From IMG/VR virus record IMGVR_UViG_2675903433_000022: DNA of 64,000 bases; one strand, given 5' to 3'. A program made the translations under genes and the position numbers. Each line of letters begins with the position of its first letter. Within the stretch, counting starts at the first letter, position 1. Below the pieces are notes generated by a model, which saw only the letters and a list, made by a program, of their open reading frames with translations, was not told the origin of the DNA and did no database searches. This document shows positions 37,253 to 50,461 of this stretch, one piece after another. The stretch is from a virus (Duplodnaviria > Heunggongvirae > Uroviricota > Caudoviricetes).

Positions 37253-37588
37253 ATGGAGGAAAACATGTCGAACGAGATGGCGGGCGTTACAACAGAGCAA
37301 GTTGAGCGTATTGCCGCGATCGTTGCTCGGGAGGTTGTTGGCAAATTAGGCAAAGAGCTACGTGAAGAAATTGGCCAGGAGGTCAATGATCAGCTGAAAA
37401 CCTACTTTGGTGATATGACCCCGGCGCAACATAGTATTCAACACTCCAACCTGGACAAGCTCCTTAACCGGTTAGATTCCATCTCCAGTGGGTTCTTTGG
37501 CGGCATTGTTTCTAAAATAACGTCGTTCATTATTACCGCACTGCTTTTGGGGTTAGCCGCGTATGGCGTAAAAAATGGACTGCAATAA
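37253..37588 (+). CDS. membrane protein with single C-terminal TM, possible holin-like
   Basis: C-terminal hydrophobic segment ITSFIITALLLGLAAYGV; topology is atypical for holins. Confidence 0.3.
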   Translation: MEENMSNEMAGVTTEQVERIAAIVAREVVGKLGKELREEIGQEVNDQLKTYFGDMTPAQHSIQHSNLDKLLNRLDSISSGFFGGIVSKITSFIITALLLGLAAYGVKNGLQ

Positions 37589-37601
37589 CAGGAGATCAAG
37601 G

Positions 37602-38294
37602 ATGAAGACTCCGAGAGGCATTCGTAATAATAACCCCGGTAATCTTGATAAAGGATCACCGTGGCAAGGTCTGGTTGCGAATCCAGACGAACCGCGTTTT
37701 TGCACGTTTAAAGACCCTGTTTGGGGGATTCGTGCGCTGGCGGTGACTCTAATTACCTACCACGACAAACGTCGCGCAAAAGACGGCTCAAGTATCGATA
37801 CCATTCGTGAAGTTATTGAACGTTGGGCACCGCCGAATGAAAACAACACTGACGCCTACATTAATGAGGTGTCTAAAGCCGTTGGTGTAACCGCAGACAT
37901 GATCATCGATCTGCATGATTACGACATCCTTCGACCTTTGGTTGAGGCAATCATTCGCCACGAGAATGGCCGGGGTCCGCTAAAAACGCTGAACACCTGG
38001 TATGCGGCAGAAGTTATTGAGGAAGGTCTGCGTCGAGCTGGCGTTGTTAAGCCGGTGAAAACCGTGAAGGCTGTTCCTGTAACTAAAGAAACAGCAGGCG
38101 CAACTGTTACAGCAGGTATTGGTCTGGCGCAACTGGCCGATGTTATGCCGCAGGTTTCCGCTGCTATGGATAAGGCACAAGGCCATATCTCTAGCGGGGA
38201 TACAGTACGCATCATCTTCGGTATTGCCACTATTGTTGTGGCCGGATTCATTGCCTGGTCGCAGGTAAGAAAACACCAGAAAGGGATGGTCTAA
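37602..38294 (+). CDS. putative lysis protein / peptidoglycan hydrolase candidate with C-terminal TM
   Basis: Start at MKTPRG after AGGAG; conserved-looking GIRNNNPGNL motif; C-terminal TM; located directly before the spanin pair. Function is inferred from context only. Confidence 0.35.
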   Translation: MKTPRGIRNNNPGNLDKGSPWQGLVANPDEPRFCTFKDPVWGIRALAVTLITYHDKRRAKDGSSIDTIREVIERWAPPNENNTDAYINEVSKAVGVTADMIIDLHDYDILRPLVEAIIRHENGRGPLKTLNTWYAAEVIEEGLRRAGVVKPVKTVKAVPVTKETAGATVTAGIGLAQLADVMPQVSAAMDKAQGHISSGDTVRIIFGIATIVVAGFIAWSQVRKHQKGMV

Positions 38295-46605: not shown

Positions 46606-47088
46606 ATGGCGATAGTTGTGAAAGCTGATTTGTCAAAAATCCCCTCTATTTCAGGAAATAATGGTTATTCACTTCGTTGTGAGGAAGTAAAGATAAACGG
46701 TGAGTCGGCATATTGCAGTTACTCCGTTTGCCAGCACACCATTCTTGCCTTCAAAGAAAGCCGTCTTCCTCGAACTTCTTTCCAGTCGTGCGCAACCGCT
46801 ATTAAAGCAGGCAAATGCAAGGCGTTAAAAATGATGGTTGAAGAGATTCGTAAAGGAGAATCTCTGTATTTCGAAGATATGACCGCACTCATTAAGGAGG
46901 TTGAAGAACGGAATAAACAAGCCAGAACTATAAAACGAAAACGTGACAGTGTAACGATTAATAGCATGGTTAAGAAGAGCGCCACATCACAAACAGCGAT
47001 CACTGACGTGTATGCGGCGTTGCTTGAAGAAACAACAAAAGAAACACATGAGCAAATCGATCAACATATGGAGGCAAAACAACAATGA
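46606..47088 (+). CDS. hypothetical protein (160 aa)
   Basis: ORF track. Confidence 0.4.
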   Translation: MAIVVKADLSKIPSISGNNGYSLRCEEVKINGESAYCSYSVCQHTILAFKESRLPRTSFQSCATAIKAGKCKALKMMVEEIRKGESLYFEDMTALIKEVEERNKQARTIKRKRDSVTINSMVKKSATSQTAITDVYAALLEETTKETHEQIDQHMEAKQQ

Positions 47089-48407
47089 AAAAGTTGATCG
47101 CACTTAAGCATAAGCTGGACGAAATGAAAGCTATGGGAACCAATGCAAAAAAAGAGGCATTGGCCAACATGGATGACTTTGAACAAAGCATGGTTTCATT
47201 GATGCTCAACCCTTTCATCCGTTTTGGGGTAAAGAAATACAAAGTGGCAGAGCCGCTTAGTGAGTCCGTCCTAAGTGACGAAAAAGCCATTGATGTACTG
47301 AATAAGCTGGCCTCTCGCGAGCTGACGGGGAGCGCAGCAATAGTTGCTGTTGAGTCTATCGTGGCGTCAATGTGCGCCGATGGGCAGGACGTCTTCCGTC
47401 GTTTCCTCTTAAAAGATCCGAAAGCTGGCGTTGGGATTAGCCTATGTAACAAGGTTTTTGAAAATCCCATTCCGAAATTCGAGGTGCAGCTGGCGTCACC
47501 GTATAAAGAAAAAGGCGACAAATACCCCTTCAAGCCAAATCCTAAAGCCAAATGGCCGATGATTGGCAGCCTTAAGCTCGATGGTTTGCGAGTAATTTGT
47601 GAGGTTATTGTTGACGAGGAAGAGGTTAACTTCCTTTCTCGTACTGGTAATCCAATCACGTCTCTCGATCACCTAAAGCCAGCCATGCTCGAATTAGGCA
47701 AACTTTCAGGCCACAAACACATCTTCTTCGATGGTGAAGGAACAGCCGGTTCATTTAACCAGTCCATATCTGCATTGCGCAAAAAGAACGTGCAGGCAAT
47801 TGGCGCTATTTATCATGTTTTCGACTTCTTCCTACCGGAATGGCGAGCACAGGCTAAATCCAAAGAGTATGCAAAGACAGGTATGAAGCTGAAAGAGCGC
47901 CTGGCTATGCTGGTGGCGTTGTTCAAAAACGATCGCAGTGAAGGCTACACACAAGACATTCACCTGCATCCGTTCTATATCATCCATAGCCACGAAGACT
48001 TCATCGAACGCTTCATGAAACGCCTGGACGATAACGAAGAAGGGGAGATGGGCAAAGATCCGAACTCTGTTTACGAGTTTAAACGTACCCGCAGCTGGTG
48101 GAAGTTAAAAGACGAAGATTCAGAAGATGGTGAAATTATCGACTTTGAGCCGGGCGACCCGGACTCTGGTTTTGCCAACACACTTGGAAAAATTGTTATT
48201 CGTCTTGAAAACGGCGTCATCGTTCGTGCGAGCGGCATTAAGCATAAATATCTGGACGAGATCTGGAACAACAAAGAGAAGTACCGTGGTCGTATTGTCG
48301 AGGTTCATTGTCACGAGAAAACACCGGACGGCAGCTTACGCCACCCACGACTGAAATGGCCGCGTTGCTTACGCGATACAGAAGATCGAATCGGAGATAA
48401 AGAATGA
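47085..48407 (+). CDS. ATP-dependent DNA ligase
   Basis: Adenylation motif I KLDGLR (KxDG) and downstream nucleotidyltransferase-like motifs; 440 aa. Confidence 0.75.
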   Translation: MKKLIALKHKLDEMKAMGTNAKKEALANMDDFEQSMVSLMLNPFIRFGVKKYKVAEPLSESVLSDEKAIDVLNKLASRELTGSAAIVAVESIVASMCADGQDVFRRFLLKDPKAGVGISLCNKVFENPIPKFEVQLASPYKEKGDKYPFKPNPKAKWPMIGSLKLDGLRVICEVIVDEEEVNFLSRTGNPITSLDHLKPAMLELGKLSGHKHIFFDGEGTAGSFNQSISALRKKNVQAIGAIYHVFDFFLPEWRAQAKSKEYAKTGMKLKERLAMLVALFKNDRSEGYTQDIHLHPFYIIHSHEDFIERFMKRLDDNEEGEMGKDPNSVYEFKRTRSWWKLKDEDSEDGEIIDFEPGDPDSGFANTLGKIVIRLENGVIVRASGIKHKYLDEIWNNKEKYRGRIVEVHCHEKTPDGSLRHPRLKWPRCLRDTEDRIGDKE

Positions 48408-48583
48408 TGCTCGGCTGGATGATTGCATTTTTAGCGGTTGGTTTTTTAATCGGTATTGTGGTGATGTCCAGTTGCATCAATGACTACATTAAAAGCGGTG
48501 TTATAGAACGACGCGGTCGTATTTATCGCATTGTAGAAATAACCCACACAGTGAAGGAGATTAAGGATGATCGTATTAAGTAA
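48404..48583 (+). CDS. small membrane protein (59 aa), not in ORF track
   Basis: ATG overlapping ligase stop; TM LGWMIAFLAVGFLIGIVVM then RGRIYRIVEITHTVK. Confidence 0.4.
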   Translation: MMLGWMIAFLAVGFLIGIVVMSSCINDYIKSGVIERRGRIYRIVEITHTVKEIKDDRIK

Positions 48584-48782
48584 GCGGGAGAAGGAAACGC
48601 TTCATGAAATCAGTAAGTGGCCGGAGTTCCCTGAGTACTGGAAGCCTAAAACGCGAGCTAAGTTAGAGCGTTTAGGGTTGGTTGCAAACGTTTCTGAAAC
48701 GAAGTGTTCGGCCAACTACCAGTTAACTGATAAAGGGAAAGTATTGCTACAGCAATTAGTAGAATCAGGAGTGTTAAAATGA
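48567..48782 (+). CDS. hypothetical small protein (71 aa)
   Basis: ORF track; overlaps neighbours. Confidence 0.35.
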   Translation: MIVLSKREKETLHEISKWPEFPEYWKPKTRAKLERLGLVANVSETKCSANYQLTDKGKVLLQQLVESGVLK

Positions 48783-48931
48783 TTCCATACATCTCATTAG
48801 CTTTTATGGGTGGCTTCCTTATTGGCTTCGGCATCTGTCGTGATTTAATTAAGCAGGAACTTAAAACCAAAACACTGTGCATCGGAAAGCGTGTGTATCG
48901 GGTAGTTCATGAAACAAAGGTTAGAAAATGA
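48779..48931 (+). CDS. small membrane protein (50 aa), paralogue-like of 48404..48583
   Basis: ATGA overlap with previous stop; TM ISLAFMGGFLIGFGI then GKRVYRVVHETKV, matching the motif of the 59-aa protein. Confidence 0.4.
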   Translation: MIPYISLAFMGGFLIGFGICRDLIKQELKTKTLCIGKRVYRVVHETKVRK

Positions 48932-49218
48932 TCAATTTAACTTCTTGGAACTGGTGGTTGGCCACCTATTTCTTAGCGGCCGGAGTCGCATTCGCCTTTT
49001 ACGTAGGTCAGTTAGTCGTAAAACTGTTGCTGATTAAATTTGCTAGTCATAAACGTATCGATGATGGTCTGTGGCGTCTTGGCACCTTGGTGGAAACTCG
49101 CTACGGGCAACTTAAGGAGAACGAAACCATTACTATCCAAGCGAAACGATTCACTGCCACCATCACAAGAACACCTAGTCGTAGAGTGGCCTTGATCAAA
49201 AAAGTTACAACCGAATAA
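48928..49218 (+). CDS. membrane protein (96 aa)
   Basis: N-terminal TM WWLATYFLAAGVAFAFYV; ATGA overlap with previous gene. Confidence 0.4.
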   Translation: MINLTSWNWWLATYFLAAGVAFAFYVGQLVVKLLLIKFASHKRIDDGLWRLGTLVETRYGQLKENETITIQAKRFTATITRTPSRRVALIKKVTTE

Positions 49219-49226
49219 AAATACAA

Positions 49227-49250
49227 TGATAAGTATTTACTTACTTATCA
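49227..49250. promoter_or_regulatory. palindromic motif site TGATAAGTATTTACTTACTTATCA
   Basis: Strongly palindromic; at start of the 780-bp non-coding region before the tRNAs. Confidence 0.4.
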
Positions 49251-49608
49251 TTTATGTATAAGATGACTTTGTTTTCGTTGAGACGCGACTGTTTGAACTT
49301 AAATACAAGTGCAAACGAAGAAGTCTATCTGGCAGTAGCCTAATAAGCCAAACACCAGCGAGGTCAGTTTCCAGCCTCGTTACCGAAATGGGACACACTG
49401 AGCGAGTGTGATTGCAGAACGCAGGAGGGAACATTCATGTTCCCTCCGATGAAGTAACAGAATGGGCGGTTGGTATATTTTCAACTCCATATGACTCCCG
49501 GATTCTTAGCCACTGACCGCCCATCCTGTTACGTCATTTTGTTCAATTATGTCGTTTATACTGGGTTAAAAAGCGGCGACGTAGCCCGGCTGGTATGGTT
49601 AGCCAGCA

Positions 49609-49730
49609 CACAACGTTGAGGCCATTACATTTTTATCAATTCTAAGGTTCTATTCACAGAGATACCGGCGAGCGTTGATATGTAACATGTTGGGCAAACA
49701 TTCAATCGGAGTAGTGGCCTCAACGTTGTG
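49609..49730. repeat. 16-bp perfect inverted repeat pair (CACAACGTTGAGGCCA / TGGCCTCAACGTTGTG) with about 90-bp spacer
   Basis: Arms at 49609..49624 and 49715..49730; arm sequence related to the pair at 50464..50541. Confidence 0.6.
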
Positions 49731-49997
49731 AAGACAGGATTGTTGTGTAGGTTTAACCACTGTTGCCATTGGTGCCTGTTTTCACAACAAATGATTCCAT
49801 ACATCACATTGTATAAATTATAAAGTAGGTGCTGCCCTCAGAAACATCATCTACTTAAAGATTTTGCCTTCTACTATTGAGCGAAGTCGAAAGCGTCTGG
49901 CACTAACGGAAAGTGCAAGTAGCGGTGCGTTTCCTGGCAGAAACTAACACCGCCGCGATTGGCACTGTTGAGTAATAAATACAGGCAGTGCTGAATT

Positions 49998-50072
49998 GAT
50001 GGTGTAGCTCAGCGGTAGAGCAGTTGGCTGTTAACCAACTGGTCGGTGGTTCGAATCCACCCACCATCGCCA
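49998..50072 (+). tRNA. tRNA-Asn (anticodon GTT)
   Basis: Cloverleaf folded by hand: acceptor GATGGTG/CACCATC, D-stem GCTC/GAGC, anticodon loop CTGTTAA, T-loop GGTGG-TTCGAAT-CCACC, then G-CCA. Confidence 0.75.
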
Positions 50073-50074
50073 AT

Positions 50075-50150
50075 GCCGGTTTAGCTCAGTTGGTAGAGCA
50101 CCTGCCTTGTAAGCAGGATGTCAGCGGTTCGAGTCCGTTAACCGGCACCA
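50075..50150 (+). tRNA. tRNA-Thr (anticodon TGT)
   Basis: Acceptor GCCGGTT/AACCGGC, D-arm GCTC-AGTTGGTA-GAGC, anticodon loop CTTGTAA, T-arm AGCGG-TTCGAGT-CCGTT, A-CCA. Confidence 0.75.
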
Positions 50151-50374
50151 ATACAACGATAAGATCATTACGGTTAATCGTCGTTCATGTGCACAATGAC
50201 TGGTCGAAAGGTAGTGATCTTACCGTTGTGGTGGATTCGCAGACTGATGCGATAGCTTTCTTGGATGTTAGGGAAATGCGGCCGCAAATCTTCCCTTTCG
50301 CGAGCGGTGATCGTCCGTAGTCCTAATTGGCTGCACCGTATGCCGGAGATTCAGTACCGGCCACCACAACGGCC

Positions 50375-50461
50375 GGAGAGTAGGGAGCATGGTGCTCAAG
50401 CGGTCTTGAAAACCGTCCCATTGCGCAAGCGATGATGGTTCGATTCCATTACTCTCCGCCA
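50375..50461 (+). tRNA. putative type II tRNA-Ser (anticodon TGA), atypical
   Basis: Acceptor GGAGAGT/ACTCTCC, anticodon stem-loop GCGGT-CTTGAAA-ACCGT, long variable arm, T-arm GATGG-TTCGATT-CCATT, G-CCA; position 8 is A rather than U and D-stem is only 3 bp. Confidence 0.45.

What the first reader, a model, noticed from the sequence alone, without database searches (positions are those of the whole stretch)
48404..49218. Run of overlapping tiny membrane-protein genes after the ligase, two missed by the ORF track
Four consecutive small genes with ATGA-type overlaps follow the ligase. Two of them (59 aa at 48404..48583 and 50 aa at 48779..48931) are below the 60-aa ORF cutoff and share the same architecture: one N-terminal TM helix then a basic motif (RGRIYRIVEITHTVK / GKRVYRVVHETKV). 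A 96-aa TM protein follows. Paralogous mini-membrane proteins in a replication module could be host-takeover or membrane-depolarising toxin-like peptides or immunity factors.
Basis: seen in the sequence. Interest (0 to 1): 0.45.

Follow-up and report, generated by a model that had tools for sequence, protein, structure and literature searches.

The report
Small membrane-protein genes after phage ligase
Four tiny overlapping genes behind the DNA ligase of an SSU5-like phage-plasmid are real, conserved genes: two related mini membrane proteins, a third membrane protein and a small probable DNA-binding protein. They are already annotated as hypothetical proteins in relatives, and their function is still unknown.

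Summary
The window is an SSU5-like phage-plasmid, 98% identical to Escherichia phage Cyrano. The four ORFs exist as described. Each has a Shine-Dalgarno sequence, and three of the four junctions are ATGA overlaps. All four frames are under purifying selection (dN/dS 0.05-0.2) against SSU5, Y. pestis pMT1 and Klebsiella relatives. They are not new: SSU5_045-048, PHROGs 4381/4054/6302/4507, and RefSeq now names orf1 "AplA, after-plasmid-ligase protein".

What I add:
- orf1 and orf3 are true paralogs (hhalign 93.6%, E 2e-7), and distant lineages carry one copy or two in tandem.
- The conserved core is ligase, then one or two mini-TM proteins, then an orf4-like single-TM protein, always with overlapping starts and stops. 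The winged-helix-like orf2 is optional.
- The family is tiny: 25 clusters among 1.84 billion representative proteins.
- These proteins evolve much faster than the ligase and are often deleted.
- They are transcriptionally silent in the Cyrano lysogen.

No match was found to any toxin, holin, defence or solved-structure family. The best reading is a lytic-phase inner-membrane complex with cytoplasmic tails; its function is inferred, not shown. A role as an immunity factor in the lysogen is disfavoured.

An unrelated ~370-nt structured non-coding RNA candidate lies just downstream.

The parts
47085..48407 (+). ATP-dependent DNA ligase. It is the upstream gene of the operon, and its stop codon overlaps the orf1 start.
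   Evidence: Annotated as DNA ligase in Cyrano, SSU5 and pMT1. PF01068 on orthologues. dN/dS 0.02-0.03.
48404..48583 (+). orf1, mini-TM protein type 1 (59 aa, or 58 aa from the ATG at 48407). Equals SSU5_045, PHROG 4381 and RefSeq 'AplA, after-plasmid-ligase protein'. It has a TM helix (residues ~6-24) with GxxxG, followed by a cytoplasmic tail carrying RGRIYRIVEIT.
48567..48782 (+). orf2, a soluble 71-aa probable small winged-helix protein (SSU5_046, PHROG 4054; 'putative transcriptional regulator' in Cyrano). It is absent from some lineages.
   Evidence: Sub-threshold matches from four libraries, all to residues ~33-66: Pfam HTH_45/EarA, NCBIfam SSO5209, PADLOC Csa3 wHTH, and PDB HxlR/MarR/AspA/TubR. 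Absent in L091, L094 and L096.
48779..48931 (+). orf3, mini-TM protein type 2 (50 aa; SSU5_047, PHROG 6302), a paralog of orf1. It has the N-terminus MIPY, a TM helix with GxxxG, and the tail GKRVYRVVHET.
48928..49218 (+). orf4, a 96-aa single-TM protein (SSU5_048, PHROG 4507). Public records misname it 'C-type natriuretic protein'. The model shows a TM helix continuing into a cytoplasmic helix, then a beta-hairpin (TITIQAKRFTATIT) and a basic tail.
   Evidence: (AF2 pLDDT 64: helix 6-61, strands 67-72 and 75-80).
48389..48408 (+). First copy of an imperfect direct repeat, GGAGATAAAGAATGAT, which carries the Shine-Dalgarno sequence and start of orf1. Recombination with the second copy explains the clean orf1 deletion seen in many E. 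coli relatives.
   Evidence: the junction in L004 is CGGAGATAAAGAATGATCGTATT.
48555..48571 (+). Second copy of the direct repeat, GGAGATTAAGGATGAT, which carries the Shine-Dalgarno sequence and start of orf2.

Best explanation
The four genes form the translationally coupled tail of the lytic-phase replication operon (helicase, primase, ligase) of an SSU5-supergroup phage-plasmid.

orf1 and orf3 are paralogs of one tiny, lineage-restricted family. Members share a short uncharged N-terminus, one TM helix with a conserved glycine (GxxxG), and a cytoplasmic tail ending in G-[KR]-R-[IV]-Y-R-[IV]-V-x-x-T.

orf4 belongs to a second family with a TM helix, a cytoplasmic helix and a beta-hairpin. In every lineage it follows a mini-TM gene with an overlapping start.

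I infer that a mini-TM protein and orf4 insert with the N-terminus out and the C-terminus in, and assemble into a small inner-membrane complex whose working parts are the cytoplasmic tails. I further infer that the complex acts during lytic growth, not in the lysogen, as an accessory and fast-evolving factor. It would either modulate a host membrane or cytoplasmic target (host takeover) or hold a replication-related partner at the membrane. orf2 is an optional small winged-helix DNA-binding partner or regulator.

Shown: the genes are real, selected, paralogous, syntenic, silent in lysogeny and frequently lost.

Inferred: topology, complex formation and function.
For: Coding and selection:
- dN/dS is 0.05-0.2 with third-position excess in all four frames.
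- Shine-Dalgarno sequences and overlapping stops/starts are present.
- No sigma-70-like promoter or terminator-like site separates the genes from the ligase.

Paralogy:
- hhalign 93.6%, E 2e-7.
- 37% identity over 46 ungapped residues within the divergent Klebsiella lineage L012.
- An ungapped family alignment shows a graded series between the two types.
- Tandem copies occur in L096, and single copies in L091 and L094.

Module conservation:
- The order ligase, orf1, orf2, orf3, orf4 with identical spacing is seen in most of 77 IMG/VR loci and in the plasmid loci.
- A mini-TM gene followed by an overlapping orf4-like gene is present in all eight lineages examined.

Topology:
- N-flanks are neutral or negative, and C-flanks mostly positive (net -1 to +4).

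Expression:
- CYRAN_36-39 have log2(FPKM+5) of 2.3-3.0 in LB lysogen cultures, where the floor is 2.32. They are not among the genes scored as expressed in lysogeny (PMC9928086).

Accessory and fast-evolving character:
- Across lineages the ligase is 72-74% identical, against 30-54% for the mini-TM proteins and 18-36% for the orf4-like proteins.
- orf1 is missing from roughly a third of Escherichia relatives: 139 records have orf1, against 218 with orf3 and 226 with the region.
- Other variants are a TM deletion in L011, a degraded orf3 TM in L008, and replacement of the orf3 tail plus orf4 in L010/L011.
Against: - There is no direct evidence of translation, membrane insertion, interaction or phenotype.
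- The AF2 models are low-confidence. orf1 has pLDDT 70 and is modelled as one long helix. orf4 has pLDDT 64. The tail structures and any complex are therefore unproven.
- Conserved gene order in a phage module can reflect ancestry alone rather than function.
- Natural deletions may simply mark defective phage-plasmids that survive as plasmids. One relative also carries a ligase pseudogene, so the deletions do not prove dispensability for lytic growth.
- The RNA-seq data come from one lysogen without induction, so lytic-phase expression is inferred from the operon context, not observed.
Confidence: 0.4

Rival explanations
1. Membrane tether for replication. As with phi29 p16.7 and p1, the small single-TM proteins, together with the winged-helix orf2, would hold the replicating phage-plasmid DNA or a replisome or ligase component at the inner membrane during lytic replication.
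For: The genes always lie immediately after the ligase and are translationally coupled to it, in eight lineages. The predicted tails are cytoplasmic and basic. A probable DNA-binding winged-helix protein sits between the two paralogs. The genes are silent in lysogeny, like the replication genes.
Against: orf2 is missing from three lineages. orf3 and orf4 are kept in a Klebsiella plasmid that has lost the ligase, orf1 and orf2 (L009). These proteins evolve far faster than the replication enzymes. There is no sequence or fold similarity to p16.7 or p1, or to any DNA-binding domain in the tails. This comparison rests on my own knowledge of phi29, not on a test.
Confidence: 0.2
2. Toxic small membrane peptides, like type I toxins or holins, that depolarise or permeabilise the inner membrane. 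They would act in lysis timing, abortive killing or plasmid addiction.
For: They are small, have a single TM helix and carry basic tails. There are weak TM-only matches to holin profiles: PHROG 2359 at E 0.019 for orf4, and Phage_holin_5_2 at E 0.048 for one mini-TM member. TM segments are recurrently lost or damaged in plasmid-state relatives, which could reflect selection against leaky toxicity.
Against: There is no match to Hok/Gef, Ldr, TisB, Ibs, Fst or any holin family at meaningful E-values. There is no own promoter, antisense RNA gene or antitoxin arrangement; the genes are embedded in the replication operon. The endolysin-like gene lies about 10 kb away at 37575-38294. The most conserved part is the cytoplasmic tail motif rather than the TM segment, which is unusual for pore-forming peptides.
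Confidence: 0.15
3. Superinfection exclusion or immunity proteins that block DNA entry by related phages.
For: Small inner-membrane proteins are typical exclusion factors (from my own knowledge: T4 Imm and Sp, P22 SieA). Fast evolution and presence/absence variation fit an arms-race role.
Against: The genes are at the detection floor in the lysogen, where exclusion would be needed most. They are not among the lysogeny-expressed genes of Cyrano. There are no PADLOC matches. The predicted tails face the cytoplasm rather than the periplasm.
Confidence: 0.1
4. Chance ORFs or an annotation artefact, meaning the small frames are not genes.
For: They are short, and the Cyrano record does not annotate orf1.
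Against: Purifying selection acts on all four frames across relatives whose synonymous sites are near saturation. Start contexts are conserved, including a TTG start that preserves the MIPY N-terminus in L012. Length and synteny are conserved in about 90 loci.
Confidence: 0.02

Closest known systems
RefSeq/PGAP 'AplA, after-plasmid-ligase protein' and PHROGs 4381, 4054, 6302, 4507 (SSU5_045-048; pMT1 and pHCM2-type orthologues)
   Same: These are the same genes. orf1 is 95-100% identical to proteins now labelled AplA. Each of the four proteins matches its PHROG end to end, with E-values from 1e-37 to 1e-57.
   Different: These labels are positional or 'unknown function'. No paper mentions the AplA name. 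None of the records states that orf1 and orf3 are paralogs or that they pair with orf4.
Bacillus phage phi29 p16.7 and p1, small membrane proteins of the early replication operons (from my own knowledge)
   Same: They are small single-TM phage proteins encoded among replication genes. They have an N-terminal TM helix followed by a cytoplasmic helical and C-terminal part, and they are expressed with the replication genes.
   Different: No sequence or fold similarity was detected. The host and phage type are different. DNA or terminal-protein binding has not been tested here.
Type I toxins such as Hok/Gef (from my own knowledge of the family; Pfam PF01848)
   Same: About 50 aa, one N-terminal TM helix and a charged C-terminal part, carried on plasmids of Enterobacterales.
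   Different: There is no Pfam match even at E <= 1. There is no antisense RNA, mok-like leader or own promoter. The genes sit in a lytic operon that is silent in the plasmid state.
Small host-takeover membrane proteins of lytic phages, such as SPO1 gp56 (from my own knowledge)
   Same: They are short single-TM proteins in early operons, accessory and lineage-restricted.
   Different: There is no homology, and the target and phenotype are unknown here.

Membership tests
Mini-TM family (AplA / PHROG 4381 + PHROG 6302) | Full-length match to the family profile | tested here: met
   orf1 vs PHROG 4381: E 8e-39 over 1-59/59. orf3 vs PHROG 6302: E 8e-37 over 1-50/50. RefSeq labels the orf1 orthologue aplA.
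Mini-TM family (AplA / PHROG 4381 + PHROG 6302) | orf1-type and orf3-type belong to one family (common descent) | tested here: met
   hhalign 93.6%, E 2e-7. BLASTP E 2e-7 within L012. Intermediates P0116, P0120 and P0108 exist. The negative control with orf4 gives 1% and 0.2%.
Mini-TM family (AplA / PHROG 4381 + PHROG 6302) | Position directly downstream of the phage-plasmid ATP-dependent ligase | tested here: met
Single-TM (bitopic) inner-membrane protein, N-out/C-in | One hydrophobic segment of about 19 or more residues | tested here: met
   Kyte-Doolittle 19-mer scores of 1.6-2.6 in all members of both families. These segments have the highest pLDDT in the AF2 helices.
Single-TM (bitopic) inner-membrane protein, N-out/C-in | Experimentally shown membrane insertion and orientation | not testable with these tools
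   Only the positive-inside rule was applied.
Type I toxin (Hok/Gef and others) | Sequence membership in a toxin family | tested here: not met
   No Hok, Ldr, TisB, Ibs or Fst hit at E <= 1 or 0.5.
Type I toxin (Hok/Gef and others) | Own promoter with a cis-antisense RNA antitoxin | tested here: not met
   There is no promoter-like site in 47000-49300 and no Rfam antitoxin RNA. The genes overlap their neighbours in a long operon.
Type I toxin (Hok/Gef and others) | Toxicity on expression | not testable with these tools
   This requires an induction experiment.
Holin | Match to a holin family beyond the TM segment | tested here: not met
   Only TM-limited weak hits were found: PHROG 2359 at E 0.019 over residues 7-34, and Phage_holin_5_2 at E 0.048 in 1 of 15 members.
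Holin | Adjacency to the endolysin or lysis cassette | tested here: not met
   The endolysin-like gene is at 37575-38294, about 10 kb upstream in another module.
Winged-helix DNA-binding protein (orf2) | Significant match to a winged-helix family | tested here: inconclusive
   Only sub-threshold matches were found, but all fall on residues 33-66. They are HTH_45 E 0.067, EarA 0.056, SSO5209 0.008, Csa3 winged-helix 0.001, and PDB HxlR, MarR, AspA and TubR at 0.13-1.
Anti-phage defence or exclusion system | Match to a known defence protein model | tested here: not met
   PADLOC gave nothing for orf1, orf3 or orf4.
Anti-phage defence or exclusion system | Expression in the lysogen | tested here: not met
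   CYRAN_37-39 are at the floor in LB and are not listed as morons (PMC9928086).

The most novel reading that the evidence does not exclude
The mini-TM/orf4 pair is a previously unrecognised two-component membrane module specific to SSU5-supergroup phage-plasmids. Its conserved cytoplasmic R-x-Y-R-x-V tail would capture a defined partner at the inner membrane during lytic growth. Candidate partners are the ligase or replisome, the winged-helix orf2 bound to DNA, or a host factor. That would make it a new mechanism for compartmentalising replication or for host takeover in the elements that include Y. pestis pMT1 and S. Typhi pHCM2.
Probability: 0.15. Interest if true: 0.55.

Novelty: new member of a known kind. 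Interest (0 to 1): 0.3.

Why it matters
SSU5-like phage-plasmids are widespread in clinical Enterobacterales. The region matched 792 plasmid records and 235 of 5,426 complete E. coli genomes, and the group includes Y. pestis pMT1. Nothing is known about these conserved small genes.

Three results turn four 'hypothetical proteins' into a testable unit:
- Two of the genes are paralogs.
- A mini-TM gene always pairs with an orf4-like gene.
- They are lytic-phase genes and are frequently lost.

As it stands, however, this is an ordinary case of small uncharacterised phage membrane proteins. It is not a new kind of system.

Tried and rejected
- **Family searches.** Pfam, NCBIfam, PADLOC and PDB-sequence searches of single proteins and of family alignments gave no significant hit for the mini-TM or orf4 families.
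- **Structure prediction.** The orf1 model is a single long helix (pLDDT 70) and says nothing about the tail. The orf4 model has pLDDT 64, and the Foldseek search against PDB returned only E > 5 noise.
- **orf4 as a third paralog.** The idea came from the look-alike AKRFTATITRT, but hhalign gave 1% and 0.2% and the tail shuffles gave p of 0.87-0.99, so I rejected it.
- **Exhaustive profile search.** A search of 1.84 billion representatives found only 25 clusters, all from the same group of elements, so no informative distant relatives turned up.
- **Literature.** No paper mentions 'after-plasmid-ligase', and every 'AplA' hit listed concerned antiphospholipid antibodies or an unrelated abbreviation. 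The phage-plasmid genomics paper I opened does not discuss this region, and a further keyword search found nothing on these genes. The supplements of a Y. pestis proteome paper were not available.
- **'C-type natriuretic protein'.** This label on orf4 has no support in any library and is a propagated misannotation.
- **Covariance model.** I did not build one for the neighbouring RNA because the alignment exceeds the 400-column limit.
Full report
**What the window is.** Bases 47000-50000 are 98% identical to Escherichia phage Cyrano (the pLF82 phage-plasmid) and 79% identical to Salmonella phage SSU5. The 1-kb region of the finding matches 792 plasmid records in Klebsiella, Escherichia, Enterobacter, Salmonella, Yersinia pestis pMT1, Citrobacter and Cronobacter. 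It also matches 235 of 5,426 complete E. coli genomes, always on plasmids. The upstream genes are a DnaB-like helicase, a primase, two unknown genes and an ATP-dependent ligase, all on the + strand and tightly packed. Three tRNA genes and an integrase follow.

**Checking the observation.**
- All four ORFs are present at the stated coordinates.
- Ligase/orf1, orf2/orf3 and orf3/orf4 overlap as ATGA. orf1/orf2 overlap by 17 nt.
- Each start has a Shine-Dalgarno sequence 7-8 nt upstream.
- orf1, orf3 and orf4 each carry one strongly hydrophobic N-terminal 19-mer (Kyte-Doolittle 2.6, 1.84 and 2.0). orf2 has none.
- The two sub-60-aa genes were missed only because of the length cutoff. They are annotated as SSU5_045 and SSU5_047 and in pMT1.

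**Are they genes?** I aligned each gene codon by codon against up to eight relatives. dN/dS is 0.05-0.20 for all four frames where dS could be estimated, and where it could not pS (0.76-0.92) far exceeds pN (0.18-0.29). Third-position differences dominate, and synonymous sites are at or near saturation. In a divergent Klebsiella lineage orf3 starts with TTG yet keeps the MIPY N-terminus and a TTGA overlap. No promoter-like or convincing terminator-like site separates these genes from the ligase, so they read as the tail of the replication operon.

**Paralogy of orf1 and orf3.**
- Pairwise BLASTP gives 33% identity over 45 aa, E 2e-5.
- Shuffling gives p about 5e-5, or about 9e-4 when the TM segment and the tail are shuffled separately.
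- With broader family alignments, hhalign gives 93.6% probability, E 2e-7, over 50 ungapped columns.
- The orf4 family scores 1% and 0.2% against the same profiles, so the signal is not just shared hydrophobicity.
- Within lineage L012 the two copies are 37% identical over 46 ungapped residues.
- The merged alignment is collinear. G13, R39 and Y41 are invariant, and R42, V44 and T47 nearly so. G17 is nearly invariant within the SSU5/Cyrano-type members, giving GxxxG.

**The family beyond SSU5.** An exhaustive profile search of 1.84 billion representative proteins found only 25 clusters. Contigs encoding three of the most divergent members showed other ~105-112 kb phage-plasmid lineages:
- L096 has the two mini-TM types in tandem with no orf2, followed by an orf4-like gene.
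- L091 and L094 have a single mini-TM gene followed by an orf4-like gene.
- L090 has an orf1-type gene, orf2 and an orf4-like gene, but no orf3.

The conserved core is therefore the ligase, then at least one mini-TM gene, then an orf4-like gene, always with overlapping starts and stops. orf2 is optional.

Across these lineages the ligase stays 72-74% identical. The mini-TM proteins fall to 30-54% and the orf4-like proteins to 18-36%, yet every member keeps its hydrophobic segment and a charge distribution that favours N-out/C-in.

**What the proteins look like.**
- AF2 models orf4 as a helix spanning residues 6-61 plus a beta-hairpin at 67-80 (pLDDT 64). The hairpin sequence pattern recurs in the distant orf4-like proteins.
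- The orf1 model is one long helix of low confidence in the tail, so it says nothing about the motif.
- Foldseek against PDB, and profile searches against PDB and Pfam, found nothing significant for either family.
- orf2 gives sub-threshold hits from four independent libraries. All are to winged-helix domains and all cover residues 33-66. This agrees with Cyrano's 'putative transcriptional regulator' label.

**Expression.** The published LF82 transcriptomes (PMC9928086, S1 Table) report log2(FPKM+5).

| Gene | LB overnight |
|---|---|
| CYRAN_36 (ligase) | 2.45 / 2.66 |
| CYRAN_37 (orf2) | 2.97 / 2.32 |
| CYRAN_38 (orf3) | 2.32 / 2.32 |
| CYRAN_39 (orf4) | 2.83 / 3.0 |

The floor is 2.32. None of these genes is on the list of genes expressed in lysogeny. 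In the other conditions they rise modestly, to about 5-6, together with their neighbours. This argues against a role in the lysogen such as immunity, exclusion or addiction, and places them with the lytic replication genes. Lytic-phase expression itself was not measured.

**Natural variants.**
- About a third of Escherichia relatives lack orf1: 139 records have orf1, against 218 with orf3 and 226 with the region.
- The deletion junction shows recombination between two imperfect direct repeats, GGAGAT[A/T]AAG[A/G]ATGAT. These repeats are the Shine-Dalgarno sequence and start of orf1 and of orf2. After the deletion orf2 inherits orf1's coupling to the ligase.
- Other relatives lost the orf1 TM segment (L011), or fused the ligase N-terminus to the orf2 C-terminus while keeping orf3 and orf4 (L009).
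- Others replaced the orf3 tail together with orf4 (L010, L011), or degraded the orf3 TM segment with relaxed dN/dS of 0.46 (L008).
- Several database 'orf4' proteins are frameshift products.

The cassette is thus accessory in the plasmid state. Whether it is dispensable for lytic growth cannot be told, because defective phage-plasmids persist as plasmids.

**Interpretation.** With high confidence, these are real, co-transcribed, lytic-module genes encoding three single-TM proteins, two of them paralogs, plus a small soluble and probably DNA-binding protein.

With moderate confidence, a mini-TM protein and orf4 work together at the inner membrane with cytoplasmic tails. The grounds are universal adjacency, conserved coupling, joint loss in L010/L011, a conserved TM glycine and a conserved tail motif.

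The function is inferred only. I favour a lytic-phase accessory membrane complex acting on a host or replication-related partner. The rivals are a phi29 p16.7-like replication tether, toxic or holin-like peptides, and exclusion factors, in decreasing order of support.

**Comparison with what is known.** The genes themselves are already catalogued: SSU5_045-048, four PHROGs of unknown function, and RefSeq's positional name AplA for orf1. No publication mentions the AplA name. They are not members of any characterised toxin, holin, defence or DNA-binding family tested here. In kind, they resemble the small single-TM proteins found in the early operons of many phages. The finding is correct but ordinary, and I score it 0.3.

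**A neighbour worth a separate look.** Directly after orf4, about 49229-49624 is non-coding yet better conserved than the small genes. It is 79-82% identical to SSU5, pMT1 and Klebsiella relatives, and 72.6% identical to L094, where the orf4-like protein is only 36% identical. An 11-sequence alignment folds into ten helices closed by a long-range stem, about 49271-49640.
- 97.4% of cells pair, against 35-46% when the partners are slid.
- 18 pairs show compensatory changes, against 7.3 +/- 1.8 in shuffles (0 of 500 reach the observed value).
- Many invariant G-U pairs point to the + strand.
- No Rfam family matches.

This looks like an undescribed ~370-nt structured RNA lying between the replication operon and the tRNA cluster.

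Noticed in passing
window 49229-49640 (+): A conserved non-coding element lies right after orf4 and is more conserved than the small genes: 79-82% nt identity to SSU5, pMT1 and Klebsiella relatives, and 72.6% to the distant lineage L094. RNAalifold gives 98 pairs in 10 helices closed by a long-range stem. 97.4% of cells pair against 35-46% in slid controls, and 18 pairs show compensatory changes (0/500 shuffles reach this). Invariant G-U pairs favour the + strand. No Rfam 15 family matches; there are only weak tmRNA-like hits below threshold. This is a candidate undescribed ~370-nt structured RNA upstream of the tRNA cluster.
   Followed up: partly
window 49225-49252: A perfect 11-bp AT-rich inverted repeat (AATGATAAGTA / TACTTATCATT) starts 7 nt after the orf4 stop. 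Its core is conserved, with compensating changes in L094 (AGGTA/TACCT). No T-run follows, so it is not a classical terminator.
   Followed up: partly
window 48389-48408 and 48555-48571; locus L004 1581-1626: Imperfect direct repeats that carry the Shine-Dalgarno sequence and start of orf1 and of orf2 mediate a clean, in-frame loss of orf1. This deletion is seen in about a third of Escherichia relatives.
   Followed up: yes
window 48928-49218 and public records: orf4 orthologues are widely labelled 'C-type natriuretic protein' in GenBank and RefSeq. No library supports this, so it is a propagated misannotation. Several database versions (for example P0088, P0091, P0105) are frameshift products that read into the +1 frame.
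   Followed up: yes
RefSeq E. coli plasmids, for example L097 1608-1784: PGAP now names the orf1 orthologue 'aplA, after-plasmid-ligase protein AplA'. However, the NCBIfam release 20.0 library available here gave no hit for orf1, and no paper uses the name.
   Followed up: partly
window 49998-50461; L001 5999-6246; L097 3198-3748: The tRNA cluster varies between close relatives. The window has Asn, Thr and Ser with a ~220-bp gap before Ser. Cyrano has them contiguous. Another E. coli plasmid adds a tRNA-Tyr. Rfam scores the tRNA-Ser as tRNA-Sec at 46.6 bits, just under the threshold of 47.
   Followed up: no
downstream of the conserved RNA: L005 2949-3854, L002 6221-8566, L009 3286-4158: The stretch just beyond the conserved non-coding element is a cargo insertion site. 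It holds the caf1 (F1 capsule) operon in Y. pestis pMT1, genes annotated 'porphyrin biosynthesis' in SSU5, and an AbiH-family abortive-infection gene in a Klebsiella plasmid.
   Followed up: no
LF82 RNA-seq, CYRAN_37-39 vs CYRAN_36: Outside LB, the three small genes reach roughly 2-4 times the FPKM of the ligase (log2 values of about 5.3-6.3 against about 3.9-4.3). This could mean an internal promoter or greater stability of the 3' end of the transcript. Levels are low and the genes are short, so it may be noise.
   Followed up: no
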